DNA of 16,370 nucleotides from a virus (Duplodnaviria; Heunggongvirae; Uroviricota; Caudoviricetes): the IMG/VR virus record IMGVR_UViG_2724679059_000001; one strand, given 5' to 3'. The position numbers were made by a program, and so were the translations under genes. This document shows, piece by piece, positions 1-15,591 of the stretch; within the stretch, counting starts at the first letter, position 1; every line of letters starts with the position of its first letter. The notes under the pieces were generated by a model. The model saw nothing but the letters and a program-made list of their open reading frames with translations, did not search any database and had not been told where the DNA came from.

Positions 1-342
1 CTACATACGACTCTGCTGCTTCTCCGTATGTACACGTTTGACTATCTTATAAATCCATTGCAGCGTCAGATTATATTTCTTCGCTAATTCGGCGTAGTTG
101 CGCCCATCGCACTCGCTATAGATTTGGTAGTCACGCTCCGATGCTCGTCCGGAGATCCCCTTAGGGAAATAAATGCTTTGTCCGCCCCAGTTACGCATCA
201 TTCGGTCGGCAATGGCAAAACCCACATTTTCTGCCGATGAACTGTCGAGATTGATGCTTTCAATCAGAACTTGCGATGCATGAAAAGCCAGGTCGTTAAT
301 GATCTCCGGTGTCCGGGCCATCTCTTTTGATTTTCGTATCAT
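1..342 (-). CDS. Mor/C-family phage transcriptional activator (Mu middle-operon-regulator-like)
   Basis: Complete 113-aa ORF (ATG at 340-342, stop at 1-3) with a GGAG RBS 7 nt upstream on the - strand. C-terminal half (GGQSIYFPKG...DGRNYAELAKKYNLTLQWIYKIVKR) matches the conserved Mor/C helix-turn-helix region from memory. Divergent from the tail operon. Confidence 0.8.
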   Translation of the reverse strand: MIRKSKEMARTPEIINDLAFHASQVLIESINLDSSSAENVGFAIADRMMRNWGGQSIYFPKGISGRASERDYQIYSECDGRNYAELAKKYNLTLQWIYKIVKRVHTEKQQSRM

Positions 343-562
343 TTTTCATCTCCATATATCTTGCATCCTGAATAAGACCCGATGCGTGTAAAACCACGGA
401 TATACGCTAAGCAGTTGTCATTACTGCTACTCAATACATTCAACAAACAAATAAACAATCACCAGAAATATAAATTCTTAATATTAATGTACGCATAAAT
501 TCACTAAATAAATATATTGTTTGTGTTATGTTTCTTGTCAACAGGAGTATCATTTTACACGA

Positions 563-582
563 TACTGTATGCACATACAGTA
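563..582. promoter_or_regulatory. LexA (SOS) box, TACTGTATGCACATACAGTA
   Basis: Perfect CTGT-N8-ACAG palindrome with TA flanks; matches 16 of 20 positions of the enterobacterial consensus taCTGTatatatatACAGta, including all the most conserved positions. Lies in the divergent intergenic region. A TATTAT -10-like hexamer (581-586) overlaps it on +, and a TTGACA -35 (541-536) lies nearby on -. Confidence 0.7.
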
Positions 583-878
583 TTATTTTTACCTGTAGTG
601 TAAAAAGATCGTTTCCCTCACAGTCGCTGACTTTCTTAAACAAACTTTAAAAATCAAATAACTATCGACTATTCCTACGATCCACCATCATCTTTTCCCT
701 GCATAATGACGCGCTTATTCGCCAGGTCACCGTTTGCTCTTTAATTGCTGAGTCGATTTATTAGCGGGCATGTTCATTTATAGAGAATCTATTTTTTAAA
801 CTTATTTATTAAAGCTTTTTTCATTCTTCACTGGCGGGTTCTGACGACACTAAACGCTCACTTATCAGGAGATATCGT

Positions 879-1166
879 ATGAAAAAAGTCACTTTTCCCC
901 GGCTTTCCGGCTGGCTGGTCGCTTCCGTCGCGCTGTTTGTCGTGATCGGCTGGACCTCTTCAGCACAGATCCCGGTCGTCATTTATAAACTAAGCCTGGT
1001 TTCGCTTTCCGCGGTTCTGGGATACTGGCTCGATCGCAGTTTGTTCCCCTGGGCACGGCCTGACTCTTTTAGCCCCTGGAAGGAACCGCGTTGCTGCGCG
1101 GCGGCAATGATTCGCCGCGCCATCATCGTTGCCGCCGTCTGTCTTTCCGTCGCCTTAGGGCTATAG
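879..1166 (+). CDS. small membrane protein, candidate holin
   Basis: 95-aa ORF with AGGAG RBS 8 nt upstream. Two to three hydrophobic helices (LSGWLVASVALFVVIGW; LSLVSLSAVLGYWL; AIIVAAVCLSVALGL). Sits immediately upstream of, and overlaps, the lysin gene. Holin role is positional inference only. Confidence 0.5.
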   Translation: MKKVTFPRLSGWLVASVALFVVIGWTSSAQIPVVIYKLSLVSLSAVLGYWLDRSLFPWARPDSFSPWKEPRCCAAAMIRRAIIVAAVCLSVALGL

Positions 1167-1168
1167 TG

Positions 1169-1774
1169 ATGTGGCTGAAATATATCGCGTCTATGATTAT
1201 TTTCGTTCTTTTCCCGCTTAACGCCTCTGAACCGCCGCGAGCCTCTCTGGCATGGCGAAACGAACTAATTCGTACAGCTCGAGAAGTCTGGGGGCTGAAT
1301 GCCCCAGTGGCCGACTTTGCCGGGCAATTACACCAGGAGTCCGCCTGGCAGCCAATGGTACGTTCCCCCGTTGGCGCACAAGGTATGGCGCAATTTATGC
1401 CTGCTACTGCGACATGGATAAGCCAGTTGTATCCACAATTGCGTGAAAACAAACCGTATAACCCAACCTGGGCGATTCGCGCGCTGGTGCAATATGACCA
1501 GCATTTGTGGAAAAACATCTCTGCGCAAAATGACTGTCAGCGTATGGCGTTTACCCTAAGCGCCTATAACGGCGGTCAGGGGTGGGTTAACCGGGATAAA
1601 AAACTGGCTGCATCCAAAGGGTTAGATGCCACTCGCTGGTTTGGTCATGTCGAGCAAGTCAACGCCGGGCGCAGCGCCGCGAACTGGCGAGAAAATCGTC
1701 GCTATCCAAAGATGATTCTCTATCAACACGCTGCCCGCTATTTACTCTGGGGACAGGCAAGCTGTCTTCACTAA
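1169..1774 (+). CDS. lytic transglycosylase (SLT domain) endolysin with N-terminal signal peptide or signal-anchor
   Basis: SLT catalytic motifs read directly: HQESAWQP...SPVGAQGMAQFMPATA and AYNGGQG. Hydrophobic N-terminus MWLKYIASMIIFVLFPLNA. The longest ORF starts at TTG 1091 but overlaps the previous gene; ATG 1169 (or GTG 1166) overlapping the upstream stop is the more likely start. Confidence 0.85.
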   Translation: MWLKYIASMIIFVLFPLNASEPPRASLAWRNELIRTAREVWGLNAPVADFAGQLHQESAWQPMVRSPVGAQGMAQFMPATATWISQLYPQLRENKPYNPTWAIRALVQYDQHLWKNISAQNDCQRMAFTLSAYNGGQGWVNRDKKLAASKGLDATRWFGHVEQVNAGRSAANWRENRRYPKMILYQHAARYLLWGQASCLH

Positions 1775-1786
1775 TCAGAGGGGCCG

Positions 1787-2101
1787 ATGAAACTCAGTAT
1801 CGATTTTTGGGAAGTGATCTCCCTTATGCTTTCCTTCGTTGGATTAATGTTTGCTGCCGGAAAACTGCTGTTAGCGCAAATTGAAAAACGACTTAATGAG
1901 CGTTTTGAGTCTCTGGAAAATGCCCGCAGGGAATCAGAAACAAGTTGGTCGAAACTGGAAAGAGAGTTTCTTGAATTTCGTGCCGAGCTTCCGCTGCATT
2001 ATGTCCGCAGAGAAGATTATCTTCGTGGGCAAGCAGTATTAGAAGCAAAGCTGGATGCCTTATATAGCAAAATCGAGCTGTTACAACGTGGCAGTTATTA
2101 A
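1787..2101 (+). CDS. membrane-anchored coiled-coil protein, probable lysis accessory (i-spanin- or releasin-like)
   Basis: 104-aa ORF with GAGGGG RBS. N-terminal transmembrane segment (ISLMLSFVGLMFAAGKLLL) followed by a charged, heptad-like helical region. Last gene before a strong terminator. Confidence 0.5.
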   Translation: MKLSIDFWEVISLMLSFVGLMFAAGKLLLAQIEKRLNERFESLENARRESETSWSKLEREFLEFRAELPLHYVRREDYLRGQAVLEAKLDALYSKIELLQRGSY

Positions 2102-2107
2102 ATACAT

Positions 2108-2140
2108 CCCCACCTTTACGTAAGTGTGGGGATTTTTTAT
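2108..2140 (+). terminator. rho-independent terminator after the lysis cassette
   Basis: GC stem CCCCAC (2108-2113) pairing with GTGGGG (2126-2131), immediately followed by ATTTTTTAT, just after the stop at 2101. Confidence 0.7.
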
Positions 2141-2247
2141 AGCCATTCAATTTTTTCTCTAAATCACATTAAAAGATTCTTCACCTTCACTGCTTCATAA
2201 TACATCTCAACGATAACGAAGTGAGCGGTAATTAAGGTACACCTCAT

Positions 2248-2703
2248 ATGAAAATTTTATCTGCAATGAATTATGTCATGGTCAAATTACGTGATCGGCA
2301 TCCTGAAATGGATATATTTATTTCATCTACGGATGCCCAGAAATATATTCCACAGACACAACAAGTTGCAGTGATTATTAATTATAGCGGTTCTGTCTTT
2401 ACCACACCCGAAAGCAGTGATGCCATCGTGCAACAGCAAATACTCCGCTTAACCGCCACCGTTATTGTTGACAAAAATTGTGACGCGTTAAACGCACTTG
2501 ATTGCATACGCAGCGCATTGGGCGGCCTTCAGCTTCCTGATTGCGATCGTCTGCTTTGGCTTGAAAAAGAAATTAATACGGGTGAGAGCGGCGGTTTCTG
2601 CCGCTACATCCTGGAAATGGCGACCAGCTCGCTGTTTATCGCTGAACAGGAAAGCACGGATCTTCCCCTGCTTACGGAAGTTAACTACGAGGAAACTGAA
2701 TGA
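2248..2703 (+). CDS. phage tail-associated protein (Mu gp37-like, possible tail completion or terminator protein)
   Basis: 151-aa ORF, first gene of the tail block. Its stop overlaps the next start (ATGA at 2700-2703). Family assignment is from gene order and recollection, not a search. Confidence 0.5.
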   Translation: MKILSAMNYVMVKLRDRHPEMDIFISSTDAQKYIPQTQQVAVIINYSGSVFTTPESSDAIVQQQILRLTATVIVDKNCDALNALDCIRSALGGLQLPDCDRLLWLEKEINTGESGGFCRYILEMATSSLFIAEQESTDLPLLTEVNYEETE

Positions 2704-2897
2704 AATACATCTACAACGGCCCGGCAAGCGGCGTCACCCTTGCCGATGGACAAGAAATCTTATTGTGGCCGAACAGTGAAATTGATCTGCCAGAAGACAA
2801 CGAGTGGGTCATGACCATGATTGCCCGCAATCATCTGACTCCTGTCATCACTCAGGAAGAACAAAATAACGTAGAGGAAATTGTACATGGCAGCTAA
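2700..2897 (+). CDS. small conserved phage tail-module protein (Mu gp38-like)
   Basis: 65-aa ORF, translationally coupled on both sides (ATGA overlap upstream; overlaps the sheath start). Acidic protein. Function unknown. Confidence 0.5.
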   Translation: MKYIYNGPASGVTLADGQEILLWPNSEIDLPEDNEWVMTMIARNHLTPVITQEEQNNVEEIVHGS

Positions 2898-4311
2898 TTA
2901 CCTGCACGGTGTAGAAACCATTGAAATTGAAACCGGCCCGCGTCCGGTTAAAGCGGTAAAATCCGCCGTCATCGCTTTAATCGGTACGGCCCCCTGCGGT
3001 CCGGTAAATAAACCAACATTATGCCTTTCTGAAAGCGATGCTGCGCAGTTTGGCTCGACTCAGGCTAACTTTACGATCCCACAGGCACTGAAGGCGATTT
3101 ATGACCACGGTGCCGGTACGGTGGTGGTGATTAACGTGCTGGATCCGGCAAAACATGGCTCCAACATCAGCAATGAGAGTATCACTTTTGACGCTAACAA
3201 CCAGGCGAAGCTCGCTCACCGCAATGTGCGTAACGTGGTACTAAAGCCCTCTTCATCAAATTCATCAACCTTTAACACCGCAGCATTTAGCGTAGATGAA
3301 CAAACAGGCATAATTACCCGTAAAGGAGCCGACATTCCTCCTGGTGCGAAAGTTTGCGCCTATTATTCCTGGTGCGACCCTACAAAGGTCACCGCAGCCG
3401 ATATTATCGGTGCCGTAAATACCGCAGGCGACCGCACGGGGATGAAACTCCTTCAGGACACCTATAACCTGTACGGTTTCTACGCCAAAATCCTGCTTGC
3501 TCCCGTGTTTTGTACGCAAAAATCAGTAACTACTGAGCTGATTGCACAAGCGGAAAAACTCGGTGCGCTTACCTACATTGATGCTCCGATTGGGACGACA
3601 TTCCAGCAGGTATTGGCTGGACGCGGTTCGCAAGGGGCTATCAACTTCAATACCAGCTCTGATCGTGTGCGTTTATGTTACCCACACGTCAAAGTTTACG
3701 ATGGCATCACTAACCAGGAAGTTCTCGAACCACTCTCTTCGCGCGCTGCCGGGCTACGTGCCAAAGTAGACCTCGAAAAAGGTTTCTGGTGGAGCAACTC
3801 AAACCAGGAAATTCAGTGTATTACCGGTATTGAACGTTCGCTTTCTGCAATGATTGATGATCCACAAAGCGAAGTGAATCAGCTCAACGAAAACGGCATT
3901 ACCACTATTTTCAATAGTTACGGTTCTGGTCTGCGCTTGTGGGGCAACCGCACAGCGGCATGGCCTACCGTGACCCATATGCGTAACTTTGAAAACGTTC
4001 GCCGGACAGGCGATGTAATTAATGAGTCAATCCGTTATTTCAGTCAGCAGTATATTGATATGCCGATTAATCAGGCTCTTATTGACGCGCTGACCGAATC
4101 GGTAAATACCTGGGGCCGAAAACTGATTGCCGACGGCGCACTGCTTGGCTTTGAGTGCTGGTACGATCCGGCGCGAAATTCACCGGCTGAACTCAGCGCC
4201 GGGCATTTATTGCTTAGCTATAAATTCACCCCGCCGCCGCCGCTGGAACGTCTGACGTTTGAAACTGAAATTACTTCTGAATATTTAGTCTCTCTGGAGA
4301 GCAATAGCTAA
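2887..4311 (+). CDS. contractile tail sheath protein (P2 FI / Mu L-like)
   Basis: About 474 aa, the size and position expected for a myovirus sheath, immediately before the tube gene. GAGGAAA RBS before ATG 2887; the longest ORF begins at TTG 2881. Confidence 0.85.
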   Translation: MAANYLHGVETIEIETGPRPVKAVKSAVIALIGTAPCGPVNKPTLCLSESDAAQFGSTQANFTIPQALKAIYDHGAGTVVVINVLDPAKHGSNISNESITFDANNQAKLAHRNVRNVVLKPSSSNSSTFNTAAFSVDEQTGIITRKGADIPPGAKVCAYYSWCDPTKVTAADIIGAVNTAGDRTGMKLLQDTYNLYGFYAKILLAPVFCTQKSVTTELIAQAEKLGALTYIDAPIGTTFQQVLAGRGSQGAINFNTSSDRVRLCYPHVKVYDGITNQEVLEPLSSRAAGLRAKVDLEKGFWWSNSNQEIQCITGIERSLSAMIDDPQSEVNQLNENGITTIFNSYGSGLRLWGNRTAAWPTVTHMRNFENVRRTGDVINESIRYFSQQYIDMPINQALIDALTESVNTWGRKLIADGALLGFECWYDPARNSPAELSAGHLLLSYKFTPPPPLERLTFETEITSEYLVSLESNS

Positions 4312-4835
4312 TGGCTGGAAAAATTCAAATTAACCGTATTACCAACGCCAATATTTATCTCGATGGTAATAATCTTTTAGGTCGTGCAACCGAAATTAAA
4401 TTGCCGGATGTCAGTTTAATTATGCAAGAGCATAAAGCACTGGGTATGGTCGGTAAAATCGAACTCCCGGCTGGTTTCGATAAACTGGAGGGGGAAATTA
4501 AATGGAACTCCTTTTATCAGGACGTAATGCGTAAAACGGCAAACCCGTGGCAGGCAGTAGCATTACAGTGCCGCTCCAGTATTGATTGCTATAACTCCCA
4601 GGGGAAAGCGAATCAATTAGCGTTAGTGACACATTTAACCGTGATGTTTAAAAAGAATCCCTTGGGCACATTTAAACAGAATGAAAACCCGGAATTCAGC
4701 AGCGCCTTTGGTTGTACTTATATTAAACAAGTGGTCGATGGTGAAACGCTGCTTGAACTTGATTATATGGCGAATATTTTTCGGGTTAACGGCGTGGATC
4801 AATTAAGTACCTATCGCAATAACATCGGTGGCTAA
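4311..4835 (+). CDS. tail tube protein (P2 FII / Mu M-like)
   Basis: 174-aa ORF; start overlaps the sheath stop (TAATG). Size and position match tube proteins. Confidence 0.8.
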   Translation: MAGKIQINRITNANIYLDGNNLLGRATEIKLPDVSLIMQEHKALGMVGKIELPAGFDKLEGEIKWNSFYQDVMRKTANPWQAVALQCRSSIDCYNSQGKANQLALVTHLTVMFKKNPLGTFKQNENPEFSSAFGCTYIKQVVDGETLLELDYMANIFRVNGVDQLSTYRNNIGG

Positions 4836-4839
4836 ATTA

Positions 4840-4859
4840 TTCGGGGCTACGGCCCCGAA
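4840..4859 (+). other. intra-operon RNA stem-loop after the tube gene
   Basis: Perfect 8-bp stem TTCGGGGC / GCCCCGAA with a 4-nt loop, directly after the tube stop; no U-tract follows. Possible mRNA stabiliser or partial attenuator after the abundant sheath and tube genes. Confidence 0.4.
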
Positions 4860-4885
4860 CTTCGCAACATAAATAAGGATACAAA

Positions 4886-5203
4886 ATGAAAGAGCATTAT
4901 ATCTTACAGTTCCCATTTACGTCGGCAGCAGGAAATACTATCGACTCGCTGCAATTACGTCGCCTGAAAGTAAAAGATATGCGCAACGCGCGCCGGATCA
5001 GCGAAAAACCCGAAGAGTGGGATGAACCGCTAATGGCGGCGATGACCGGACTGGTGCCAGAAGATTTAGCTGAAATGGATTTGCTGGATTACCAGGCATT
5101 GCAGAAACGATTTCAATCCATGCTTACCGTGGTTACAGAATCCTCCCCAGCTATGGCAGGCAATGGCGCTACTGGCGAGATGGTTTCGCTTTCCACCCAG
5201 TGA
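4886..5203 (+). CDS. tail assembly chaperone (P2 gpE-like)
   Basis: 105-aa acidic protein between the tube and tape-measure genes, the canonical chaperone position. AAGGA RBS. Confidence 0.6.
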   Translation: MKEHYILQFPFTSAAGNTIDSLQLRRLKVKDMRNARRISEKPEEWDEPLMAAMTGLVPEDLAEMDLLDYQALQKRFQSMLTVVTESSPAMAGNGATGEMVSLSTQ

Positions 5204-5392
5204 GATAGACGCGCTCACCATAGATGACTTTAGCAACTGGCTGGATGAAGCCAGCGACCAAATAAAGATCGAATATGGCTCGCAGACCTGATGTCTGCGA
5301 GTTCTTCAAAGCCCGCCAGGTTTATTTCTTCCCAGCCCCTTTTTTAGAAAAATAACCAGTGGGCCATTATCAATAATTAAAGAGAAACAATT

Positions 5393-6274
5393 TTGGCCAA
5401 CGATATTATTACCCAGCTTCAGGCGCGTAATGAGACGTTGACGCAGGCAATAGCCCGTTACGGCTCACTCAACGCCAGAACTTTGTTAGCTCTCTCTTCT
5501 CAGCAAGCGACAGTAATCAAACTAACGCAGCAACTTGCCGATTCTGCTCTCCGCCTGGAGGAAAATAGCCGGAACCGCGCTGATCTAATGGAGAAAACCC
5601 AAACATTTGCCGGGCAATTTAGCAAGGTATTCAATGTTGAAGCCCCCGACTGGAAGTTGCCATATGAGTTCCAGGACAACATGGTCAATATGGCGACCAA
5701 AGGTGGGATGAATGCTACAACCCGCGAGACGCTCAGCCTTAATCTGCGCGACTGGAGCATGGATTTTAACCAGCAGCAGACCACCTTACAGAACGCAGCC
5801 CAAACGCTGATCGAAGGCAATTTGTCGTCGATGCAGGATCTCAACCGTTATATGCCGGAGATCGCCAAAGCTGCCACCGCCACGCGCGAAAGTGCTGAAA
5901 CGTGGGCGAATGCCGCGCTCGCGACTCATGATCGATTGAATATTGCCCCGGAAAATTTCCACGCCACGCAAAACATGATGTATGGCATTAGCAAAAGCGG
6001 TGGGCCTGCCGTTGCCGAACAAACGCAGTGGATAGAGAAATTTGCAGGTAAAACCGGCGCTCAGGGTCTGGAAGGTATGGCTGAACTGACCGCCATCATG
6101 CAGATCGCCATGAAAAACGGGGCCAGCGCCAGTGCGGCGGCGGAGAATTTCGACCACTTTCTGCAAACCACCTTTTCGAAAAAACCGATAACTGGTTCGC
6201 CAGCCAGGGCGTTGATCTGCAAGGCTCTCTGCTTGAGCATCAGCAAAACGGTATGGGTGTTAGCGAAGCCATGA
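5393..6274 (+). CDS. tail tape measure protein, N-terminal part (gene apparently frameshifted)
   Basis: Ala/Gln-rich helical protein in the tape-measure position, starting at TTG 5393. The frame ends at 6274 while the continuation runs in another frame from an A6 tract at 6179-6184. Confidence 0.65.
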   Translation: MANDIITQLQARNETLTQAIARYGSLNARTLLALSSQQATVIKLTQQLADSALRLEENSRNRADLMEKTQTFAGQFSKVFNVEAPDWKLPYEFQDNMVNMATKGGMNATTRETLSLNLRDWSMDFNQQQTTLQNAAQTLIEGNLSSMQDLNRYMPEIAKAATATRESAETWANAALATHDRLNIAPENFHATQNMMYGISKSGGPAVAEQTQWIEKFAGKTGAQGLEGMAELTAIMQIAMKNGASASAAAENFDHFLQTTFSKKPITGSPARALICKALCLSISKTVWVLAKP

Positions 6275-7767
6275 CTCATATCGTGCAAATGCAGCTTGAG
6301 AAGATGAATCCGGCGATCCTCGGCACCTTCAAACGCACTATGCAGATTGAAGATTTATCTGCTCGCAGCAATGCGCTGCAATCGATGGTGACGCAATTTA
6401 ATCTGGGCGAAATGTTCGGCGATGCGCAAACTGTGGAATTCCTGGCACCTATGCTGGCGAATATGGAGGAATATCGCCAGTTAAAAGCCTCTGCCATGCA
6501 AGCCAGCAGCAAGAATCTGATTGATGCCGACTTTTCTGCGCAAATGGCCTCGCCCATTGAACAGACTAAAGCGTTACAGCTGGCGTTAAATGATTTATGG
6601 CTCAGCATTGGCTTGCAATTAATGCCGCTGATTGGCGAGCTGGCACAAAGCCTTACGCCGGTTGTTCGCCAGTTCAGCGCCTGGCTACGTGAGCACCCGG
6701 CACTGGTGCAAAACATTGCGAAAATCGTCGGGGCGATTTGGCTGTTTAACGGCGCGCTGAATGTTTTAAAACTGGGCGCGAACTTCATCGCCTCGCCGTT
6801 TATTCGTCTGGTCGATATCTTCCTGAAAGTCAGGGCAAGTCTGGCACTCACAGGCGGGGCAAGTAAGATGCTATCAGCGGTTAAGTCATTGGGTGGCGGT
6901 GCAAAATGGCTAACGCAACTGCTTGGTCGTGGCCTGATTGGCGCACTGAAACAGGCAGGTCAGACCGTCTTCTGGTTGGGTAGGGTTTTATTGATGAATC
7001 CCATTGGTCTGGTCATCACTGCGATTGCGGGCGCTGCTTATCTGATTTATCGCAACTGGGAGCCTATCTCCAGGTTCTTTTCTACCATCTGGCAACGTAT
7101 CACCACGGCCTTTGACGGCGGCATTGCAGAAATTTGTCGGTTAATTCTCGACTGGTCGCCGCTGGAGTTGTTCTATAGCGCCTTTTCCAGTGTGATGAAT
7201 TGGTTTGGTGTTGAAATGCCTGCGAGTTTTAGCGAGTTCGGCAGCAATCTTCTGGCTAGCCTGGCCGACGGCATAATGAATGCCTTCCCCGCTCTGAAAG
7301 GCATTATTGATCAGGTCAAAAACGTCATCCCAGACTGGCTAAAAACCACGATGGGTATTAGTACAGAAGGATCGGCTACAGCTATTACAAGCACGACTAA
7401 TACCGCATCCGTCTCCCCCGCGAGCGTTGTTCCAGGCGTTGCCGGTGCGATTTTAACGCCTCCGGTGGGGAAACAACTCGCGCCATCCAGTAAAACGACA
7501 ACGCCGCCATCGGCACCTGCGGCAAAAAATACAGCCGCCAAACCCGCATTGGCCTCTTTACCTGGTAAATCCGTAACCAAACCGGCGACGCTACCTTCCC
7601 GTTCCTCTGGAAAAGTTCAGGTGAATTTTTCGCCACAGATTACCGTGCAGGGTAACGGACAAAACACCACTAAAGAGATTCAGAACGTGTTGACGATGAG
7701 TAAACGCGAACTTGAAAGAATGATTAACGACGTAATGGCGCAACAACAGCGCCGGGGGTATGCCTGA
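6253..7767 (+). CDS. tail tape measure protein, C-terminal part
   Basis: Frame open from 6085; contains hydrophobic, glycine-containing segments and a Thr/Pro/Ala-rich tail typical of tape measure proteins. Ends with TGATG overlap onto the next gene. Adding one A at 6179-6184 fuses it to the upstream ORF. Confidence 0.65.
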   Translation: MGVSEAMTHIVQMQLEKMNPAILGTFKRTMQIEDLSARSNALQSMVTQFNLGEMFGDAQTVEFLAPMLANMEEYRQLKASAMQASSKNLIDADFSAQMASPIEQTKALQLALNDLWLSIGLQLMPLIGELAQSLTPVVRQFSAWLREHPALVQNIAKIVGAIWLFNGALNVLKLGANFIASPFIRLVDIFLKVRASLALTGGASKMLSAVKSLGGGAKWLTQLLGRGLIGALKQAGQTVFWLGRVLLMNPIGLVITAIAGAAYLIYRNWEPISRFFSTIWQRITTAFDGGIAEICRLILDWSPLELFYSAFSSVMNWFGVEMPASFSEFGSNLLASLADGIMNAFPALKGIIDQVKNVIPDWLKTTMGISTEGSATAITSTTNTASVSPASVVPGVAGAILTPPVGKQLAPSSKTTTPPSAPAAKNTAAKPALASLPGKSVTKPATLPSRSSGKVQVNFSPQITVQGNGQNTTKEIQNVLTMSKRELERMINDVMAQQQRRGYA

Positions 7768-8720
7768 TGTATGCCGTTTTAGGAGAGATTGAATTTAAGG
7801 TTGTCGCATTCTGGGACGGCTTTAAAAGCACAATGGGCGTGGATTACGCCACACATGCCCGTATAGAAGGCAAACCCGGTGTGCAGTTTATTGGCGATAA
7901 GCTGGATATGCTGGCGCTGGAATTTTCCCTGCACAGCCAGTTTTGCCAGCCCACAACAGAGCTTAATCGACTGCGTGAAGCCATGCTTGCTCACAAGGCG
8001 ATGGCACTGGTATTTGGCAATGGCGATTATCGCGGCTGGTTTGTAATTACGGAGCTAACCGCCACCCACCAGCACACCGATCCCTGGGGCAATGTGATTG
8101 CCCAAAACGGAACGATGTCGCTCCAGGAGTACACCGGCGATCCTAAAAATCCACTTTTACCTCCGGCGATTACCACCCAGGAGCCTAACATTGAGGAAAA
8201 GGCGAGCGATTTTCCCGACATGGTGGAGTCCTGGTTTGATCAGATATTAAACGCCATCGAAGAAGGTATGCGTAAGGCCAAAGAGATGCTGGATGAACTG
8301 ACACAAGCCATTGAAGATATTAAAAAAACGGTGGCAAAAGTGAAAGCAATGATTAAAGAGGCCAAAGTGTTAAAAGAAAAGTGTGAAAAGATAATTACGT
8401 CATTGAAAAAGACAATCGACGCCATCGAAACCCTGTTTAAACAGCCAATGGATCTGCAAACGCTGGCAGGACTCCCAAAAGCGTTGTCGGCGCAGATTAA
8501 AACTTTACTGGGTAACATGCCAGGTATCCGGGACTGCGCCAATGACGCCAGTACACTGGTTGACCATGCTCAGGCGCTTTTCGACGACATTACCAGCGAC
8601 ATCGCCGAAGCGACGTTTGATAAAGCCGCAACGTTGGTTGATCAGGCACGAACAACGGTACAACAAACCACTCCCACAGTGAGCCAGCTTGCTGCCGCGA
8701 CCATTACGAGGATCTGGTGA
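7767..8720 (+). CDS. tail protein with P2 gpU-like N-terminal domain and Lys/Glu-rich helical C-terminal extension
   Basis: 317-aa ORF between the tape-measure and gpX/gpD genes, the gpU position in P2-type order. C-terminal ~170 aa is K/E-rich and encoded by a visibly AT-rich stretch (about 8220-8480). Confidence 0.55.
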   Translation: MYAVLGEIEFKVVAFWDGFKSTMGVDYATHARIEGKPGVQFIGDKLDMLALEFSLHSQFCQPTTELNRLREAMLAHKAMALVFGNGDYRGWFVITELTATHQHTDPWGNVIAQNGTMSLQEYTGDPKNPLLPPAITTQEPNIEEKASDFPDMVESWFDQILNAIEEGMRKAKEMLDELTQAIEDIKKTVAKVKAMIKEAKVLKEKCEKIITSLKKTIDAIETLFKQPMDLQTLAGLPKALSAQIKTLLGNMPGIRDCANDASTLVDHAQALFDDITSDIAEATFDKAATLVDQARTTVQQTTPTVSQLAAATITRIW

Positions 8721-8929
8721 TGCGATACCTTGAACATATCACCACCGACGGCGAACGCTGGGATAATCTGGCATGGCATTACTACGGTGATGCGCTGGCT
8801 TATGAACGCATAATCGTCGCCAATCCACATGTCGCCATTTACCCGGTACTGCCTTCCGGTATTCAGCTCATTATTCCGGTCATTTCCGTCAATAAAACCT
8901 TATCGGAGATCCCACCATGGCTGAGATAA
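8720..8929 (+). CDS. tail protein X (P2 gpX-like, LysM-like)
   Basis: About 70 aa with the YYGD...ANP...LP.G pattern typical of gpX; overlaps the flanking genes. Confidence 0.7.
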   Translation: MRYLEHITTDGERWDNLAWHYYGDALAYERIIVANPHVAIYPVLPSGIQLIIPVISVNKTLSEIPPWLR

Positions 8930-9957
8930 GCGTAACTGGTGGCGTCTTTGCCACACTCACGCCCATTTTTACCCTCTGGTATGGGCATAAAGATATCACT
9001 TATGACATCACACCCTATGTCACCAGCATCAGTTACCACGACAGCATCAAAAACGAGTCAGATACCATCGCGATTACACTGGATGACACCGATGGACGCT
9101 GGATAAAAGAGTGGTATCCCGGCAAAGGCGATACGCTGGCGCTGCATATGGGTTATCAGGGGGAAAAGCTGCTCGATTGTGGTCAGTATATTATTGATAA
9201 AATTGATATTTCAGCGCCACCTTCTACGGTAAATATTGATGGCATCGCCACTTCCGTCAATCAGGCGCTGCGTACCCGTAACAGCCAGGGCTTTGAAGAA
9301 ACGACGCTTTCGGCTATCGCCAGCCGTATCGCCCAAACGCACGGTCTGAAACTGGTGGGCAAAATCGAGCCGCTCACCATCGACCGGGTAACGCAGTATG
9401 GTGAAACCGATGTCGGATTTCTCAAGCGCCTGGCCAGCGAATATGGCTATGCGGTAAAGGTGACCACCAAAGAACTGATTTTTTCGCATTTACCCACGCT
9501 GCGCTGCCTGGCGCCGGTAAAAACGATCGACCGCAAAGACGTTTCGCATTTCACCTTCAAAGATACCATTAACCGTATCTACAAAAATGCCACCGTACAG
9601 CATCAAAATAGTAAGAAAAAAGAACTGGTTATCTACACCCACGACAGCCAGCAAAAACCGTCTACCCGTGGAGTCGGCACCAGTGCCGACACGCTAAAAC
9701 TGAACAGTCGGGCGCCGGACGTTGGCGCGGCACAGGCAAAGGCCAACGCCGCGCTCGACAGCCACAACGAATATCAACAAACCGGAACGCTCAGGATGAT
9801 GGGCTGCCCGGAACTGACGGCGGGCAATAAAATTGAACTGACCGATTTTGGCGTGCTTTCCGGTCAGTGGCTGATTGATAAATCGACTCACAGTTTTGTG
9901 CGCAGCGGCTATACCACTGAAATCGACGTGTCACGCGGGCCAGCGACCAGCCAGTAA
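8917..9957 (+). CDS. baseplate hub / tail protein D (P2 gpD-like)
   Basis: 346-aa ORF directly after the gpX-like gene, the conserved X-D order. Size and position fit the hub protein. Confidence 0.8.
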   Translation: MAEISVTGGVFATLTPIFTLWYGHKDITYDITPYVTSISYHDSIKNESDTIAITLDDTDGRWIKEWYPGKGDTLALHMGYQGEKLLDCGQYIIDKIDISAPPSTVNIDGIATSVNQALRTRNSQGFEETTLSAIASRIAQTHGLKLVGKIEPLTIDRVTQYGETDVGFLKRLASEYGYAVKVTTKELIFSHLPTLRCLAPVKTIDRKDVSHFTFKDTINRIYKNATVQHQNSKKKELVIYTHDSQQKPSTRGVGTSADTLKLNSRAPDVGAAQAKANAALDSHNEYQQTGTLRMMGCPELTAGNKIELTDFGVLSGQWLIDKSTHSFVRSGYTTEIDVSRGPATSQ

Positions 9958-9966
9958 GGAGGAAAT

Positions 9967-10668
9967 ATGAAAGGAGTAACCCGTCAAACGGGGATTATCA
10001 GCGATATTGACGAAACCAGCGTTCGGGTGCGAGTCACGCTTCCGGAGTGTGACAATCTGAAGAGCAACTGGCTTGCGGTACTTCAACGCAATTCCCAGGA
10101 CAATAAAGACTACTGGCTACCGGATATGGGCGAGCAAGTGGAAGTTCTGCTGGACAATAACGGTGAAGATGGCGTGGTGCTGGGCGCAGTTTATTCTACG
10201 GTTGACACCGCGCCTGTGGCCTCGCGCGATAAACGTTACGTCCAGTTTTCTGATGGCGCAGCGTTTGAATATGACCGCAGCACCCACCAGCTGACGATTA
10301 ACGGCGGTATCGAGAAAATCGTGATTGAGGTTATCGACAGTACCCGCCTGACATCACCCAACGTTGAGATTAAAGCCCAACAGGTCACCGTGACTTCCGA
10401 TACCGTCGATATTAAAGCGACCGATGTCAGCATCGACGCCACTAAGGTCGATGTTAAAGCGGCAGCAGTGACGGTAGATGCGCCCATGAGCACCTTTACT
10501 GGCAATGTCACGGTAATGAAAAAACTCACCTGGCTTGGCGGGATGGCAGGAAGTGGAGGCATCGGTAACGCCGCCACGATAACTGGCAATGTCAACGTGA
10601 TCGGCAACGTTCAGGCCAGCGGCGCATTGCAGGACAGCGGTGGCAACTCCAACCACCATACACACTGA
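9967..10668 (+). CDS. baseplate central spike (P2 gpV / T4 gp5-like)
   Basis: Perfect AAGGAGG RBS. N-terminal OB-like region followed by beta-helix repeats (VTVTSDTVDIKATDVSIDATKVDVKAAAVTVDAP) and a His-rich C-terminus (NSNHHTH), consistent with a metal-binding spike apex. Confidence 0.85.
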   Translation: MKGVTRQTGIISDIDETSVRVRVTLPECDNLKSNWLAVLQRNSQDNKDYWLPDMGEQVEVLLDNNGEDGVVLGAVYSTVDTAPVASRDKRYVQFSDGAAFEYDRSTHQLTINGGIEKIVIEVIDSTRLTSPNVEIKAQQVTVTSDTVDIKATDVSIDATKVDVKAAAVTVDAPMSTFTGNVTVMKKLTWLGGMAGSGGIGNAATITGNVNVIGNVQASGALQDSGGNSNHHTH

Positions 10669-10673
10669 CGTTT

Positions 10674-10703
10674 AACCCGCCTGATGGCGGGTTTTCTCTT
10701 TTT
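10674..10703 (+). terminator. rho-independent terminator inside the tail cluster, between spike and wedge genes
   Basis: Stem AACCCGCC (10674-10681) / GGCGGGTT (10686-10693) with loop TGAT, followed by the T-rich run TTCTCTTTTT, 6 nt after the spike stop. Confidence 0.6.
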
Positions 10704-10766
10704 AATCAATCAGTTTTCTAAATCGCTTTAATATCGCCACAGCCCGTTCAGGGCGAAAATACCCTC

Positions 10767-11126
10767 ATGAACACAAAAACACGACCCTCAACGCTGCACT
10801 GGCAACCGGCCTTGCAGCGGCCTGAAGAATACGTCTGCGGACTGGATGATATTCACCAGGCAATACACATCATTCTGCGCACACCGCGCGGCAGTGATCC
10901 CCACAGACCGCTGTTTGGCAGCAACTTGTGGCACTACATCGATTACCCCATCGAGCGGGCAATTCCGCATGTGGTACGGGAGTCGGTGGAAGCCATCCGC
11001 CAGTGGGAGCCGCGCTGTCGGTTGCTGAAGGTGACACCAGTAATCGACGGCGAACATCTGACGTTACGTGTGCAATGGCGCGCCGCTGACGGCGTTATCA
11101 ACTCAACGGAGGTGTTATGGCGATAG
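10767..11126 (+). CDS. baseplate wedge protein (GPW / gp25 family)
   Basis: 119-aa ORF with gp25-like motifs (ILRTPRGSDPHRPLFGSNL...WEPR). Confidence 0.85.
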   Translation: MNTKTRPSTLHWQPALQRPEEYVCGLDDIHQAIHIILRTPRGSDPHRPLFGSNLWHYIDYPIERAIPHVVRESVEAIRQWEPRCRLLKVTPVIDGEHLTLRVQWRAADGVINSTEVLWR

Positions 11127-12232
11127 CCGAACCCAATTTTATTGACCGCGATCCTGCGCAAATTACCAGTGAGATGATTGCGCAATACGAAGATGCCAGC
11201 GGTAAAAAACTCTATCCGGCACAGGCTGAGCGGTTGCTCATCGACCTGTTTGCCTATCGTGAAAACCTTGTACGCATCGCCATTCAGGAAGCGGCGAAAC
11301 AGAACCTGGTCGCGTATTCCCGCGCGCCAATGCTGGATTATTTAGGGGAGTTGGTGGGCGTTCACCGTTTGCCTGCGCAGCCGGCAAAAACGACGTTGCA
11401 GTTTTCGGTCGTCAGCGCGTATACCAGCAATATCCTGATTCCCCAGGGAACGCGGGCCAGTGCCTCTGATAGCGTGATGTTCGCCACCGATGAAGATGTT
11501 CTGCTTCCGGCCAGGAGTTTGCATATCGCCGTTCCTGCCACCAGCCTCGCAGCAGGTGAACAGGGTAACGGCTGGCAGCCTGCACAAATTAGCGCACTGG
11601 TCGACAGGATTGGTCATTATGACATCAACGTAACCAACCTGACTGCGTCAACGGGCGGCTGCGGTGAAGAGAGCGATGACGCATTGCGCCAGCGTATCCA
11701 ACTGGCACCAGAAAGCTTTAGTAATGCGGGCAGCTATGGTGCCTACCGCTTTCATACGCTTTCTGTTAGCCAGTCGATTATTGACGTTGCAGTACTGGGG
11801 CCGGACGAGGGATTGCCAGAAGGCTGCGTGGAGATCTACCCGCTAACTCTGAACGGACTGCCGGGAATAGAACTGCTCGCGCAAATTGAACAGGAGGTTA
11901 GCAAGGAGAAAAAACGTCCGCTGACCGACAAAGTGAGTGCGAAATGCGCTCTTCGAGTGCCATATGAGATCCGTGCGCAGCTAACGCTGTTTACCACCGC
12001 CGATCAGGAGACAACGCTGGCTGCAGCGCGTAAAGCGATTAGCCTCTGGACGCAACAGCGGCAGAAACATCTGGGGCAGGACATTGTGCCAAACCAGATA
12101 ATCAAAGTGTTACAGGTCGATGGCGTCTATGACGTTGCGCTGAATATGCCTACAAAACGTATTTTGCAGGCGCATGAGTGGGCGGAATGCACCGCAATAG
12201 ACGTCACGATTGCCGGAGTCAGCGATGGATAA
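11117..12232 (+). CDS. baseplate protein J (P2 gpJ / T4 gp6-like)
   Basis: 371-aa ORF in the W-J-I order; overlaps both neighbours. Confidence 0.85.
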   Translation: MAIAEPNFIDRDPAQITSEMIAQYEDASGKKLYPAQAERLLIDLFAYRENLVRIAIQEAAKQNLVAYSRAPMLDYLGELVGVHRLPAQPAKTTLQFSVVSAYTSNILIPQGTRASASDSVMFATDEDVLLPARSLHIAVPATSLAAGEQGNGWQPAQISALVDRIGHYDINVTNLTASTGGCGEESDDALRQRIQLAPESFSNAGSYGAYRFHTLSVSQSIIDVAVLGPDEGLPEGCVEIYPLTLNGLPGIELLAQIEQEVSKEKKRPLTDKVSAKCALRVPYEIRAQLTLFTTADQETTLAAARKAISLWTQQRQKHLGQDIVPNQIIKVLQVDGVYDVALNMPTKRILQAHEWAECTAIDVTIAGVSDG

Positions 12233-12857
12233 ATTGCTGCCACCGCCGCCGCTTGCCAGCGATGAGCGTTTTTCGATTCTGGCAAATATCGCCGCCGAGC
12301 GTTTTGCCCAACTCGATCTGACGGCGTTGATGGTTTATCTGATCGACCAGGTTGATGCTTCGGCATTACCAGCCCTTGCAGAACAATTTCACGTTCAGGG
12401 GCTGGAAGGTTGGTTATTTACCACCGATGAGCGGGAGAAACGCGAGTTAATTAAACAAGCCATTGAACTGCATAAATATAAAGGAACAATTTGGGCGGTG
12501 CGGCGGGTGCTGGAAATACTCTCATTACCAGGAACTATTTCAGAATGGTTTGAATATGGGGGAAGGGCTTATTTTTTTAAGGTGGATATAGCGCTGGTGG
12601 ATAAAGGCCTGGATGAAAACCTTTTCAATGATTTGGTAGAACTCATTCATGAATATAAAAACACACGTTCAAAACTGGAAGCATTAATCGTCTGGATCAT
12701 TAACCAAAGTGCTATTCCTGTTATTGGCTGTGCACTTTATGGTGGTGAACTGACGACGGTTTTACCTTTCCAGATACGGGAAGTACAGCACAACACATCG
12801 ATTTATTACGGAACAGGGCAATGGAGCCTTGAAATTACATCTATTTACCCGGAGTAA
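12225..12857 (+). CDS. tail protein I (P2 gpI-like)
   Basis: N-terminal LLPPPPLASDERFSILANIAAERF and a KGT motif match the gpI family from memory. ATG 12225 overlaps the J stop; the longest ORF starts at TTG 12210. Confidence 0.8.
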   Translation: MDKLLPPPPLASDERFSILANIAAERFAQLDLTALMVYLIDQVDASALPALAEQFHVQGLEGWLFTTDEREKRELIKQAIELHKYKGTIWAVRRVLEILSLPGTISEWFEYGGRAYFFKVDIALVDKGLDENLFNDLVELIHEYKNTRSKLEALIVWIINQSAIPVIGCALYGGELTTVLPFQIREVQHNTSIYYGTGQWSLEITSIYPE

Positions 12858-12859
12858 TT

Positions 12860-14518: not shown

Positions 14519-14524
14519 TTAAAA

Positions 14525-15139: not shown

Positions 15140-15591
15140 GTAAAACCACTGTCTGGCTCGCTTGTTATAAGGGCCGAACAGAGCACCGTGGTATTGCCCG
15201 ACTGGCTGACTGGCTTACCCGTAAAATCACGCGCGGTAGTTATTCCCACTGTGAATTAGCCGTTAAGCATGGTGAAAAGAGTTACCTTTGTTACTCTGCA
15301 TCACTGCGCGATCGCGGTGTACGCGGAAAGATAATGCCATTGCCAGCGGATAAGTGGGATATGCTGCCGCTCCAGGCCAGCCTTCAGGACGTGGAAGCGT
15401 TTTTCCATAAACATGATGGCAAAAAATATGATTGGCGCGGCGCGCTTGGAATTATTACCGGTAATAAAGAACAGCGTGAACGCCTGTTTTGCAGCGAATT
15501 TTGTGCCGAATTTCTGCAATTAAAGGAGAGTTGGCGCTATTCCCCAAACCACTTGTACGCTTTAGTCAGTAGCTGGCAATATCAGCCGTAA
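15136..15591 (+). CDS. hypothetical Cys/His-rich protein; cargo gene translationally coupled to the tail-fiber assembly gene
   Basis: 151-aa ORF whose ATG overlaps the Tfa stop (ATGA at 15136-15139). Contains SHCE and FCSEFC motifs; I do not recognise the family with confidence. Confidence 0.5.
   Translation: MSKTTVWLACYKGRTEHRGIARLADWLTRKITRGSYSHCELAVKHGEKSYLCYSASLRDRGVRGKIMPLPADKWDMLPLQASLQDVEAFFHKHDGKKYDWRGALGIITGNKEQRERLFCSEFCAEFLQLKESWRYSPNHLYALVSSWQYQP

What the first reader, a model, noticed from the sequence alone, without database searches (positions are those of the whole stretch)
5163..5291. Protein-like +1-frame extension past the chaperone stop (possible recoding)
Immediately past the chaperone stop (TGA 5201-5203) the +1 frame continues for 29 codons as EIDALTIDDFSNWLDEASDQIKIEYGSQT (5202-5288), ending at TGA 5289-5291, which sits in the loop of a hairpin (CGCAGAC / GTCTGCG, 5281-5299). 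The -1 frame closes within three codons. Tail assembly chaperones of long-tailed phages are the classic site of programmed frameshifting (lambda G/GT, P2 E/E'), but that is normally -1; a +1 shift at the stop would be unusual. It could instead be a small independent ORF from ATG 5163 (42 aa, weak RBS) or chance.
Basis: inference. Interest (0 to 1): 0.45.

Follow-up and report, generated by a model that had tools for sequence, protein, structure and literature searches.

The report
Tail chaperone +1 frameshift at TTT-C
The open stretch after the tail-chaperone gene is the real, conserved second half of a two-part phage tail-assembly protein; ribosomes most likely reach it by slipping one base forward on a conserved TTT-C about 90 bases upstream of the stop, not at the stop codon.

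Summary
The coordinates are correct and the +1-frame stretch is protein-coding. It matches phrog_8286 (E = 4.8e-20), weakly matches Pfam Phage_P2_GpE, and varies mainly at +1-frame third codon positions in relatives.

The +1 frame is already open from 5070. Its conserved peptide (NPxQLWQAMALLARWFRF) starts upstream of the stop. In several relatives the chaperone stop lies upstream of the conserved E' core.

In 129 related loci (87 unique junctions, from E. coli to Burkholderia, Pseudomonas and Ralstonia), E' is always in the +1 frame. A Phe codon TTT followed by C closes the chaperone domain in 86 of 87 (window 5111-5114). It is never TTC, although other conserved Phe columns mix both codons. 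The most variable codon position changes frame at this point. In the tightest loci the permitted shift window is about ten codons around it.

Best explanation: a low-level +1 slip of tRNA-Phe (UUU to UUC) gives a 134-aa E+E' fusion, analogous to lambda G/GT and P2 E/E+E'. No stimulatory RNA structure was detected. No experiment supports it yet. It is a direction and site variant of a well-known recoding system, of moderate interest.

The parts
4311..4835 (+). Tail tube gene (P2 FII-like), immediately upstream of the chaperone
   Evidence: Pfam Phage_tube 3.7e-56. PGAP calls it 'phage major tail tube protein' in the identical E. coli S10 locus.
4886..5203 (+). Tail assembly chaperone gene (P2 gpE / Mu gp41 family), 0 frame, 105 aa, stop TGA 5201-5203. 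This is the major, unshifted product.
   Evidence: Pfam Phage_TAC_7 7.5e-20, residues 6-80. phrog_166 1.3e-33. PGAP calls it 'phage tail assembly protein'.
5111..5114 (+). Proposed +1 shift site T TTC: the 0-frame Phe76 codon TTT followed by C (context CGA TTT CAA). tRNA-Phe would re-pair from UUU to UUC.
   Evidence: TTT in 86 of 87 unique homologous junctions and never TTC. The next base is C in 87 of 87, although the next residue varies (Q, R or L). Other conserved Phe columns of the same gene mix TTT and TTC. The most variable codon position changes frame here. The only region allowed in every locus is about 10 codons around it.
5115..5291 (+). E' coding segment in the +1 frame (58 codons plus TGA 5289-5291): a variable linker NPCLPWLQ, then the conserved core NPPQLWQAMALLARWFRFPPSEIDALTIDDFSNWLDEASDQIK. 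The predicted fusion is residues 1-76 of E plus these 58 residues, 134 aa in all.
   Evidence: phrog_8286 4.8e-20 and Pfam Phage_P2_GpE 1.2e-3. The E' HMM hits the +1 frame in 129 of 129 loci. +1-frame codon periodicity. Translation.
5070..5291 (+). Full extent of the open +1 frame (73 codons), overlapping the last 45 codons of the chaperone gene
5163..5291 (+). 42-aa ORF from ATG 5163, which PGAP annotates in relatives as a stand-alone 'GpE family phage tail protein'. It is probably an ORF-calling by-product of the frameshift arrangement.
   Evidence: L002. The start is not conserved: the PhiKM clade has no ATG there, and PGAP uses a GTG 7 codons after the TTT in L135. The only Shine-Dalgarno-like bases (CAGG 5157-5160) lie 2 nt from the ATG.
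5277..5303 (+). Hairpin of 11 pairs (5277-5287 with 5293-5303) whose 5-nt loop holds the E' stop codon. Not a canonical intrinsic terminator. Function unknown.
   Evidence: RNAfold gives a -21.6 kcal/mol local fold. 96.8% of cells are paired in 17 distinct relatives, with one G-C to A-U compensatory pair. There is no + strand terminator call.
5393..7767 (+). Tape measure gene, the downstream partner of the chaperone. In this window it is split into two frames (5393-6274 and 6253-7767) by a 1-nt shorter A-run (A6 at 6179-6184).
   Evidence: Pfam PhageMin_Tail; phrog_28 and phrog_5690. E. coli S10, 4314 and 02B17CRGN002 have A7 and an intact 2376-nt CDS.

Best explanation
The segment 5115-5288 encodes the E' (lambda 'T'-like) domain of a two-product tail assembly chaperone gene in a BcepMu/P2-type contractile-tail cluster of an E. 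coli prophage remnant.

Most ribosomes translate 4886-5203 and make the 105-aa chaperone E. A minority are proposed to slip one base forward while tRNA-Phe sits in the P site on UUU (5111-5113). [quoted passage not shown] The product is a 134-aa E+E' fusion with the junction ...LQKRF-NPCLPW....

By analogy with lambda G/GT, the shared N-terminal part would bind the tape measure protein. The E' tail would recruit the tube protein, and the low shift rate would set the E : E+E' ratio.

Shown here: E' is coding, it is homologous to P2 E', it is always in the +1 frame, and TTT-C is invariant at the frame switch. Inferred: that the shift is ribosomal, that it is +1 on UUU_C, what its efficiency is, and what the two domains do.
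For: 1. Gene order is sheath, tube, chaperone, tape measure, with Pfam Phage_TAC_7 for E.

2. The +1 peptide hits phrog_8286 (4.8e-20) and Pfam Phage_P2_GpE (1.2e-3). An HMM that includes P2 E' finds it in the +1 frame in 129 of 129 related loci, which give 87 unique junctions. Hosts are Escherichia, Salmonella, Klebsiella, Ralstonia, Burkholderia and Pseudomonas.

3. With the columns anchored by a protein alignment, the Phe codon is TTT in 86 of 87 and the next base is C in 87 of 87. The flanking codons vary: CGA, GTG, TCC, GCC, TCT or ACC before it, and CAA, CAG, CGG, CGC or CTG after it.

4. Other conserved Phe columns in the same genes are mixed TTT/TTC (26/7, 21/28, 27/52, 6/17). TTT makes up only 27% of Phe codons in the loci with GC of at least 57%, yet all 19 of those keep TTT at the site.

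5. The most variable codon position switches at the site. Upstream, diversity is 0.33 at 0-frame third positions against about 0.05 at the others. Downstream, +1-frame third positions are the most variable. In 5151-5174, 0-frame third positions do not vary at all.

6. Stop codons bound the site. In 6 unique loci the +1 frame opens only 8 nt before the TTT, and in 6 the 0-frame stop falls 7 codons after it.

7. More distant relatives keep the motif and the +1 frame: Pseudomonas phage Bise (GCA TTT CAA) and Burkholderia vB_HM795 (TCC TTT CGA).

8. [quoted passage not shown] It appears to be the shift site for Yersinia YopN-TyeA. The influenza PA-X cassette is UCC_UUU_CGU, and the BcepMu clade here has TCC TTT CGC. 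Tail-chaperone frameshifts use -1, -2 or +1 in different phages. The lambda G:GT ratio is about 30:1, so a weak site without a stimulator would be enough.
Against: - There is no experimental evidence for a fusion protein in this or any related locus.
- No stimulator was found. There is no conserved RNA structure 3' of the site (z = -0.43; consensus -2.1 kcal/mol) and no Shine-Dalgarno-like sequence upstream in the window. From general knowledge of E. coli codon usage, the 0-frame A-site codon CAA is not rare.
- One unique junction (L123/L124) has TTG in place of TTT, with E' otherwise intact.
- Part of the constraint on the third T could come from dual coding if the shift were 1-3 codons further upstream, though nothing slippery is conserved there.
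- In the first 15 nt after the site, both frames vary to a similar degree (0.22 against 0.17). The comparative data therefore place the switch within a few codons, not to the exact base.
- An ATG at 5163 exists in this clade, so some independent initiation cannot be excluded.
Confidence: 0.7

Rival explanations
1. One reading: ribosomes shift +1 at the chaperone stop codon (CAG-TGA-G, 5198-5204, similar to prfB) and produce ...SLSTQ-EIDAL....
For: The +1 frame is open across the stop. Stop codons are classic stimulators of +1 shifts (prfB; review).
Against: tRNA-Gln on CAG cannot re-pair with AGU. The conserved E' peptide (NPxQLWQAMALLARWFRFPPSE) begins about 20 codons upstream of the stop, and +1-frame selection is visible from about 5130. 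In L003, L010, L012, L045/46, L052, L060 and L103-108 the 0-frame stop lies elsewhere, often upstream of the E' core. A shift at the stop would delete the most conserved part of E'.
Confidence: 0.02
2. E' is made as a small independent protein (42 aa from ATG 5163), as PGAP annotates it ('GpE family phage tail protein'), with no recoding.
For: ATG 5163 is present throughout the window clade (QAMALLARW). PGAP calls this ORF in L002 and a corresponding one in L003 and L135.
Against: The start is not conserved. The PhiKM/KP12 clade has Q-G-L-L at that position, and PGAP uses a GTG 10 codons further upstream there. Nineteen junctions have only GTG or TTG, and 2 have no start codon at all. The only Shine-Dalgarno-like bases (CAGG) lie 2 nt from the ATG. 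The +1-frame peptide and its third-position variation are conserved upstream of the ATG, at 5130-5162. This model does not explain the invariant TTT-C or the invariant +1 frame relationship. In the homologous P2 system, E' lacks a ribosome binding site and is expressed as E+E'.
Confidence: 0.12
3. The shift into the +1 frame occurs elsewhere in the overlap. One option is a -2 slip of tRNA-Pro on the C-run (TCC TCC CCA, 5141-5149; CCA to CCC), by analogy with the -2 shift of phage Mu on a G-run. Another is a slip 1-3 codons upstream of the TTT.
For: Mu, in the same Pfam family, is reported to use -2. Its +1-frame ORF opens just before CGG GGG CGA. The window has a C4 run and close relatives have C6-C7. 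Rare database proteins (P0001, P0002) are fused in-frame exactly at this tract.
Against: The C-run is absent from most relatives, even close ones (TCC GCC ACT; TCC GCA GCA), and from all other clades. +1-frame constraint is already visible upstream of it. In L103-108 the 0-frame stop precedes the equivalent position. Nothing slippery is conserved in the three codons before the TTT. A -2 slip from TTT itself would land on GAT, CCT or TGT and could not re-pair.
Confidence: 0.08
4. The extension is a chance open frame or decayed, untranslated DNA in a defective prophage.
For: A 73-codon open alternative frame is not by itself very improbable. The tape measure gene of this window carries a frameshift, so this copy of the element may be defective.
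Against: The homology E-values reach 4.8e-20. The frame is conserved and codon periodicity is clear across 129 loci in several bacterial orders.
Confidence: 0.01

Closest known systems
Phage P2 E / E+E' tail chaperone frameshift (Christie et al. 2002, as summarised in PMC3931495 and PMC3091744)
   Same: The proteins are homologous: E matches Pfam Phage_TAC_7 and E' matches Phage_P2_GpE. The position between the tube and tape measure genes is the same. In both, E' overlaps the 3' end of E and has no conserved start or ribosome binding site. The fusion sizes are similar (134 aa here, 142 aa in P2).
   Different: P2 shifts -1 on T TTT TTG, 20 nt before the E stop. Here E' lies in the +1 frame, there is no T6G heptamer, and the conserved motif is TTT-C about 90 nt before the E stop. 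E' here ends 100 nt before the tape measure start instead of overlapping it.
Phage Mu gp41 tail chaperone, -2 frameshift (Xu, Hendrix & Duda 2004, cited in PMC2628397 and PMC5009743)
   Same: Pfam describes Phage_TAC_7 as 'E, or 41 or 14', and the second ORF is likewise in the +1 (= -2) frame. The window's element also carries a Mu-type Mor activator.
   Different: In Mu the +1-frame ORF opens just before a G-run (CGG GGG CGA), where a -2 re-pairing is possible. No such run exists here, and a -2 slip from TTT cannot re-pair. The Mu extension gave no hit with the E' HMM used here.
Lambda G / GT
   Same: The logic is the same: two products share an N-terminus, the shift is low-level, the gene sits between the tube and tape measure genes, and a ratio is set by recoding (review).
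   Different: There is no sequence similarity, and lambda shifts -1 on G GGA AAG. Domain functions are known for lambda and only inferred here.
UUU_Ynn +1 shift-prone sites: Yersinia YopN-TyeA, influenza PA-X UCC_UUU_CGU (review PMC5009743)
   Same: The site has the same tetranucleotide (UUU followed by C). The BcepMu clade has TCC TTT CGC, almost the PA-X cassette. No downstream structure is needed.
   Different: The gene and its biological context differ. Frameshifting at this particular site is untested. In E. coli the following codon is CAA or CAG rather than a rare Arg codon.
BcepMu gp41/gp42/gp43 as annotated in NC_005882
   Same: The locus is directly homologous (42% identity for E). 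The record already suspects a G/T-like frameshift here.
   Different: The record pairs gp42 with gp43 through 'ribosomal slippage'. The analysis here shows that gp42 is the P2 E' homologue lying in the +1 frame of gp41, with TCC TTT CGC at the switch.

Membership tests
Tail assembly chaperone with programmed frameshift (lambda G/GT class; Xu et al. 2004) | The gene pair lies between the major tail/tube gene and the tape measure gene. | tested here: met
   Tube 4311-4835, chaperone 4886-5203, tape measure 5393-7767.
Tail assembly chaperone with programmed frameshift (lambda G/GT class; Xu et al. 2004) | A second ORF overlaps the 3' end of the first in another frame and lacks a conserved start codon or ribosome binding site of its own. 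| tested here: met
   The +1 frame is open 5070-5291 and overlaps 45 codons of E. Start codons are not conserved.
Tail assembly chaperone with programmed frameshift (lambda G/GT class; Xu et al. 2004) | A conserved slippery sequence lies in the overlap. | tested here: met
   TTT-C is present in 86 of 87 unique junctions, and codon-usage controls support selection on it. It is a +1-type site, not the usual -1 heptamer.
Tail assembly chaperone with programmed frameshift (lambda G/GT class; Xu et al. 2004) | Two proteins with a common N-terminus are actually produced, in a skewed ratio, and both are needed for tail assembly. | not testable with these tools
   This needs protein analysis and genetics. 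No proteomic or ribosome-profiling data were available.
P2 E/E+E' family (Pfam Phage_TAC_7 + Phage_P2_GpE) | The N-terminal product belongs to Phage_TAC_7. | tested here: met
   7.5e-20, 71.2 bits against a cutoff of 25.
P2 E/E+E' family (Pfam Phage_TAC_7 + Phage_P2_GpE) | The extension belongs to Phage_P2_GpE. | tested here: inconclusive
   18.7 bits, below the 23-bit gathering score (E = 1.2e-3). It is supported by phrog_8286 at 4.8e-20, by the PGAP 'GpE family' label on a 93%-identical ORF, and by an HMM built from P2 E' and six E' peptides of this family, which scores the E' of the related loci at 67-87 bits.
P2 E/E+E' family (Pfam Phage_TAC_7 + Phage_P2_GpE) | A -1 shift on TTTTTTG (or T7G / T7C). 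| tested here: not met
   E' is in the +1 frame in 129 of 129 loci. There is no T6G, and the -1 frame closes at 5206-5208. This is therefore a homologue with a different recoding mode.
UUU_Ynn +1 ribosomal frameshift sites | A 0-frame UUU followed by a pyrimidine, so that tRNA-Phe can re-pair with UUY in the +1 frame. | tested here: met
   CGA TTT CAA at 5108-5116. The following C is invariant in relatives.
UUU_Ynn +1 ribosomal frameshift sites | A slowly decoded 0-frame A-site codon or an upstream Shine-Dalgarno-like stimulator. | tested here: inconclusive
   The A-site codon is CAA or CAG in enterobacteria and CGG, CGC or CGA in other clades. GAG GTG directly precedes the TTT in one clade only (12 junctions). 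Nothing Shine-Dalgarno-like is present in the window.
UUU_Ynn +1 ribosomal frameshift sites | A measured +1 frameshift at the site. | not testable with these tools
   This requires a reporter assay or mass spectrometry.
Mu-type -2 tail chaperone frameshift | A homopolymer run that allows re-pairing two bases back. | tested here: not met
   There is no such run at the conserved switch point. The C4 run at 5145-5148 is not conserved.

The most novel reading that the evidence does not exclude
A whole lineage of BcepMu-type phages and tail-only elements, found from E. coli to Burkholderia and Pseudomonas, makes its E+E' tail chaperone through a +1 ribosomal slip on a bare UUU_C with no stimulator. 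Homologous genes use -1 (P2, a Pasteurella phage) or -2 (Mu). One protein family would then have changed frameshift direction and site several times while keeping the two-product logic. It would also provide a natural bacterial model for UUU_C +1 frameshifting, the same cassette as influenza PA-X.
Probability: 0.6. Interest if true: 0.5.

Novelty: new variant of a known kind. Interest (0 to 1): 0.4.

Why it matters
Frameshifting in tail chaperone genes is one of the most conserved recoding events in viruses, yet annotation pipelines handle only the -1 heptamer type. In this family the second half is annotated as an orphan 42-52 aa 'GpE family' ORF, is omitted altogether (E. coli S10), or is paired with the wrong partner (BcepMu gp42/gp43).

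A defined TTT-C +1 site would allow correct annotation of the fusion in hundreds of prophages. About 194 of 5,426 complete E. coli genomes carry this locus nearly full-length. It would add a clear bacterial case of programmed +1 shifting on UUU_C without a stop codon or a known stimulator. It would also document a switch of frameshift direction among homologous genes.

For engineering tailocins or phages, the site must be preserved when genes are recoded. A 'silent' TTT to TTC change would be predicted to abolish E+E'.

Tried and rejected
- Shift at the stop codon: rejected (see rival explanations).
- -1 frame: closed three codons past the stop and never carries E'.
- Stimulatory RNA structure 3' of the TTT-C: the fold of 5105-5215 is no better than shuffles (z = -0.43). 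The consensus fold of 8 diverse homologues gives -2.1 kcal/mol with no covariation.
- Intrinsic terminator at the hairpin after E': no + strand call.
- Transcriptional slippage: the T-run is only 3 nt long, too short by established knowledge of RNA polymerase slippage.
- NCBIfam for the fusion and for the 42-aa ORF: no hit.
- PDB sequence search for the fusion: nothing meaningful.
- Database search with the predicted fusion, looking for natural in-frame fusions that would reveal the junction. Only singleton proteins were found. They are fused at a poly-C tract (P0001, P0002) or by internal deletions (P0003-5, P0038). These are probably mutations or assembly errors and say nothing about the shift site.
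- The genome-contig scan with the single protein gave only 5 loci.
- The first alignment-based viral scan failed because the alignment had no stretch conserved enough to search with. It was replaced by two clade-specific scans.
- Xu et al. 2004 and Christie et al. 2002 could not be read. Whether they list BcepMu-type phages is therefore unknown.
- Literature searches found no description of a +1 TTT-C site in this family. That is absence of evidence in an open-access library, not proof of novelty.

Full report
**1. Context**

The window is 99.9% identical over its first 13.8 kb to a segment of the E. coli S10 chromosome between lysC and yjbD. That segment carries:
- a Mor-family activator;
- a holin, a lytic transglycosylase and a membrane-protein gene, which form a lysis cassette;
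- a complete contractile-tail gene set of the P2/BcepMu type: Gp37, sheath, tube, chaperone, tape measure, a GpU-like protein, X, D, V, W, J, I and a tail fibre.

No head or transposition genes are present. The finding sits between the tube gene (4311-4835) and the tape measure gene (5393-7767).

**2. The observation**

- The chaperone runs 4886-5203 (105 aa, TGA 5201-5203).
- The +1 frame reads EIDALTIDDFSNWLDEASDQIKIEYGSQT up to TGA 5289-5291.
- The -1 frame closes at 5206-5208.
- A hairpin has the stop codon in its loop.

It overlaps the last 45 codons of the chaperone gene.

**3. The extension is coding and homologous to P2 E'**

- The chaperone is Pfam Phage_TAC_7, described as 'tail assembly chaperone proteins, E, or 41 or 14', at 7.5e-20.
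- The +1 peptide hits phrog_8286 at 4.8e-20 and phrog_10636 at 9e-10.
- It hits Pfam Phage_P2_GpE at 1.2e-3, which is 18.7 bits and below the 23-bit gathering score.
- PGAP labels the equivalent ORF 'GpE family phage tail protein' in some E. coli genomes and omits it in others, including the identical S10 locus.
- In 27 unique sequences of the window's clade, nucleotide diversity past the chaperone stop (5205-5288) is 0.41, 0.16 and 0.09 at +1-frame codon positions 3, 1 and 2.

The substitution pattern is that of coding DNA.

**4. Where the frames switch**

I collected 137 related loci:
- E. coli genomes;
- five other enterobacterial genera;
- named phages, including PhiKM, KP12, Ralstonia YO107_2, BcepMu, Pseudomonas Komp_PAO1_1 and Bise, and Burkholderia vB_HM795;
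- 116 IMG/VR contigs;
- P2, Mu and a Pasteurella phage for comparison.

With HMMs for E and E', 129 loci (87 unique junction sequences) have E' in the +1 frame of E. None has it in the -1 or the 0 frame.

The conserved +1 peptide begins well upstream of the chaperone stop. In enterobacteria it reads NP-x-QLWQAMALLARWFRF-x-P-x-EID. Differences that are synonymous in the +1 frame are non-synonymous in the 0 frame, for example GCGCTACTG against GCACTGCTG.

In many relatives the 0-frame stop lies upstream of the E' core:
- within WFRF in L003 and L010;
- before DEVLLL in BcepMu;
- only 7 codons after the Phe codon in L103-L108.

A shift at the stop codon is therefore excluded.

**5. The candidate site**

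The E proteins were aligned first, so the anchor does not depend on the motif. In the column of Phe76, the codon is TTT in 86 of 87 unique junctions, TTG once and never TTC.

The next codon is CAA, CAG, CGG, CGC or CTG. The residue changes between Q, R and L, but the first base is C in 87 of 87. The preceding codon is free: CGA, CGG, GTG, TCC, GCC, TCT or ACC.

Two controls support selection on the nucleotides themselves.
- Other conserved Phe columns of the same genes are mixed: TTT/TTC counts are 26/7, 21/28, 27/52 and 6/17.
- TTT makes up only 27% of Phe codons in the loci with GC of at least 57%, yet all 19 of them keep TTT at this position.

The phase of greatest variability changes at this codon. 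Upstream, 0-frame third positions have a diversity of 0.33 against about 0.05 for the other positions. From 5115 onward, +1-frame third positions vary most. In 5151-5174 the 0-frame third positions do not vary at all.

Stop codons bound the possible shift region. In six unique loci the +1 frame opens 8 nt before the TTT, and in six the 0-frame stop comes 7 codons after it. TTT-C is the only element conserved inside this window of roughly ten codons.

More distant relatives keep both the motif and the +1 arrangement: Bise has GCA TTT CAA, and vB_HM795 has TCC TTT CGA.

**6. Mechanism**

A forward slip of P-site tRNA-Phe from UUU to UUC keeps full pairing. According to the Atkins et al. [quoted passage not shown] It appears to be the site used for Yersinia YopN-TyeA. 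The influenza PA-X cassette is UCC_UUU_CGU, and the BcepMu clade carries TCC TTT CGC.

A -2 slip from TTT would land on GAT, CCT or TGT and cannot re-pair. A T3 run is too short for transcriptional slippage, by established knowledge.

No stimulatory RNA structure was detected. None is necessarily needed, because lambda needs only about one GT per 30 G.

The predicted product is residues 1-76 of E joined to 5115-5288. It is 134 aa long with the junction ...LQKRF|NPCLPW.... The P2 E+E' fusion is 142 aa.

The domain functions are inferred from lambda. The E part would bind the tape measure protein and E' would recruit the tube protein.

**7. Comparison within the family**

- P2 uses -1 at GGT TTT TTG.
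- Pasteurella phage AFS-2018a has E' in the -1 frame, with G GGA AAG just before the stop.
- In Mu the +1-frame ORF opens just before CGG GGG CGA. This is consistent with the reported -2 shift.

Homologous chaperone genes therefore use three different recoding modes. The window belongs to the +1/TTT-C lineage.

The BcepMu RefSeq record suspects slippage but pairs gp42 with gp43. By homology, gp42 is E' in the +1 frame of gp41.

**8. Rivals**

- Independent initiation at ATG 5163 cannot be excluded for this clade. However, the start is not conserved across clades, the ribosome binding site is poor, the +1 frame is constrained upstream of it, and the model does not explain TTT-C.
- A -2 slip on the C-run at 5145-5148 is possible chemically. 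The run is not conserved, even among close relatives.

**9. Caveats**

- Everything here is comparative. No protein data exist.
- The comparative signal places the switch within a few codons, not to the exact base.
- One junction (L123/L124) has TTG.
- I could not read Xu et al. 2004 or Christie et al. 2002, so prior description of this site in BcepMu-type phages cannot be ruled out. Open-access searches found none.

**10. Verdict**

The feature is real. It is a homologue of the P2 E/E+E' system that uses a different recoding direction and site. It counts as a new variant of a well-known kind and is of moderate interest.

Noticed in passing
window 6179-6184 (tape measure gene 5393-7767): The tape measure gene is split into two frames (5393-6274 and 6253-7767). 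An A-run is A6 here but A7 in E. coli S10, 4314 and 02B17CRGN002, where the CDS is an intact 2376 nt. This is the only difference across the gene. It could be a homopolymer sequencing error, an inactivating mutation or a slippage-prone tract.
   Followed up: partly
window 1-16370; L001 and L138 (E. coli S10, lysC to yjbD): The element is tail-only. It has a Mor activator, a holin, a lytic transglycosylase, a membrane protein, a full contractile-tail set and a tail fibre with its assembly genes. It has no head, transposase or replication genes. The layout resembles an R-type tailocin derived from a BcepMu-like phage. About 194 of 5,426 complete E. coli genomes carry the chaperone region nearly full-length. 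I found no paper describing it.
   Followed up: partly
window 5277-5303: An 11-bp hairpin with the E' stop codon in its loop is conserved in the window clade (96.8% of cells paired in 17 distinct sequences). It has one G-C to A-U compensatory pair and several G-U changes. Other clades have a different hairpin 15-35 nt after the E' stop. It is not a canonical terminator and its role is unknown.
   Followed up: partly
window 5141-5149; L021, L022; proteins P0001, P0002: The C-run in the E/E' overlap varies among close E. coli relatives (C4 in the window, C6-C7 in L021 and L022). Two singleton database proteins of 134 aa are in-frame E-E' fusions joined exactly at this tract. They probably result from homopolymer indels.
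   Followed up: partly
L012 (BcepMu NC_005882, 24602-25363): The RefSeq annotation treats gp42 plus gp43 as the frameshift pair. By homology, gp42 is the P2 E' counterpart in the +1 frame of gp41, with TCC TTT CGC at the switch. gp43 has no counterpart in the window.
   Followed up: partly
L123, L124 (IMG/VR 3300038808_000028 and 3300038809_000038): These are the only junctions with TTG CGG in place of TTT CGG at the proposed shift site. The E' ORF is otherwise intact. They may be a defective copy, an alternative site or a sequencing variant.
   Followed up: no
window 7767-8720: The GpU-like tail protein is 317 aa. Residues 6-123 match Pfam Phage_P2_GpU, and a C-terminal extension of about 190 aa gives many weak coiled-coil-type hits. 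Such an extension is not annotated in P2 gpU (480-nt gene).
   Followed up: no
window 12860-14518 compared with L001 and L138: The tail fibre gene differs from the S10 copy (552 aa against 609 aa), with repeated segments around 13485-13780. This is the only strongly divergent part of the element.
   Followed up: no
L137 (E. coli 02B17CRGN002): In this strain an IS1A element interrupts the tube gene of the otherwise identical cluster, which shows the element is decaying in some lineages.
   Followed up: no
window 15606-16370 (- strand); L138 2998-4922: The element is followed on the opposite strand by a gene for a nucleotidyltransferase-domain protein and a gene for a slipin-family protein, before yjbD. 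This may be cargo or a defence-like pair. It was not examined.
   Followed up: no
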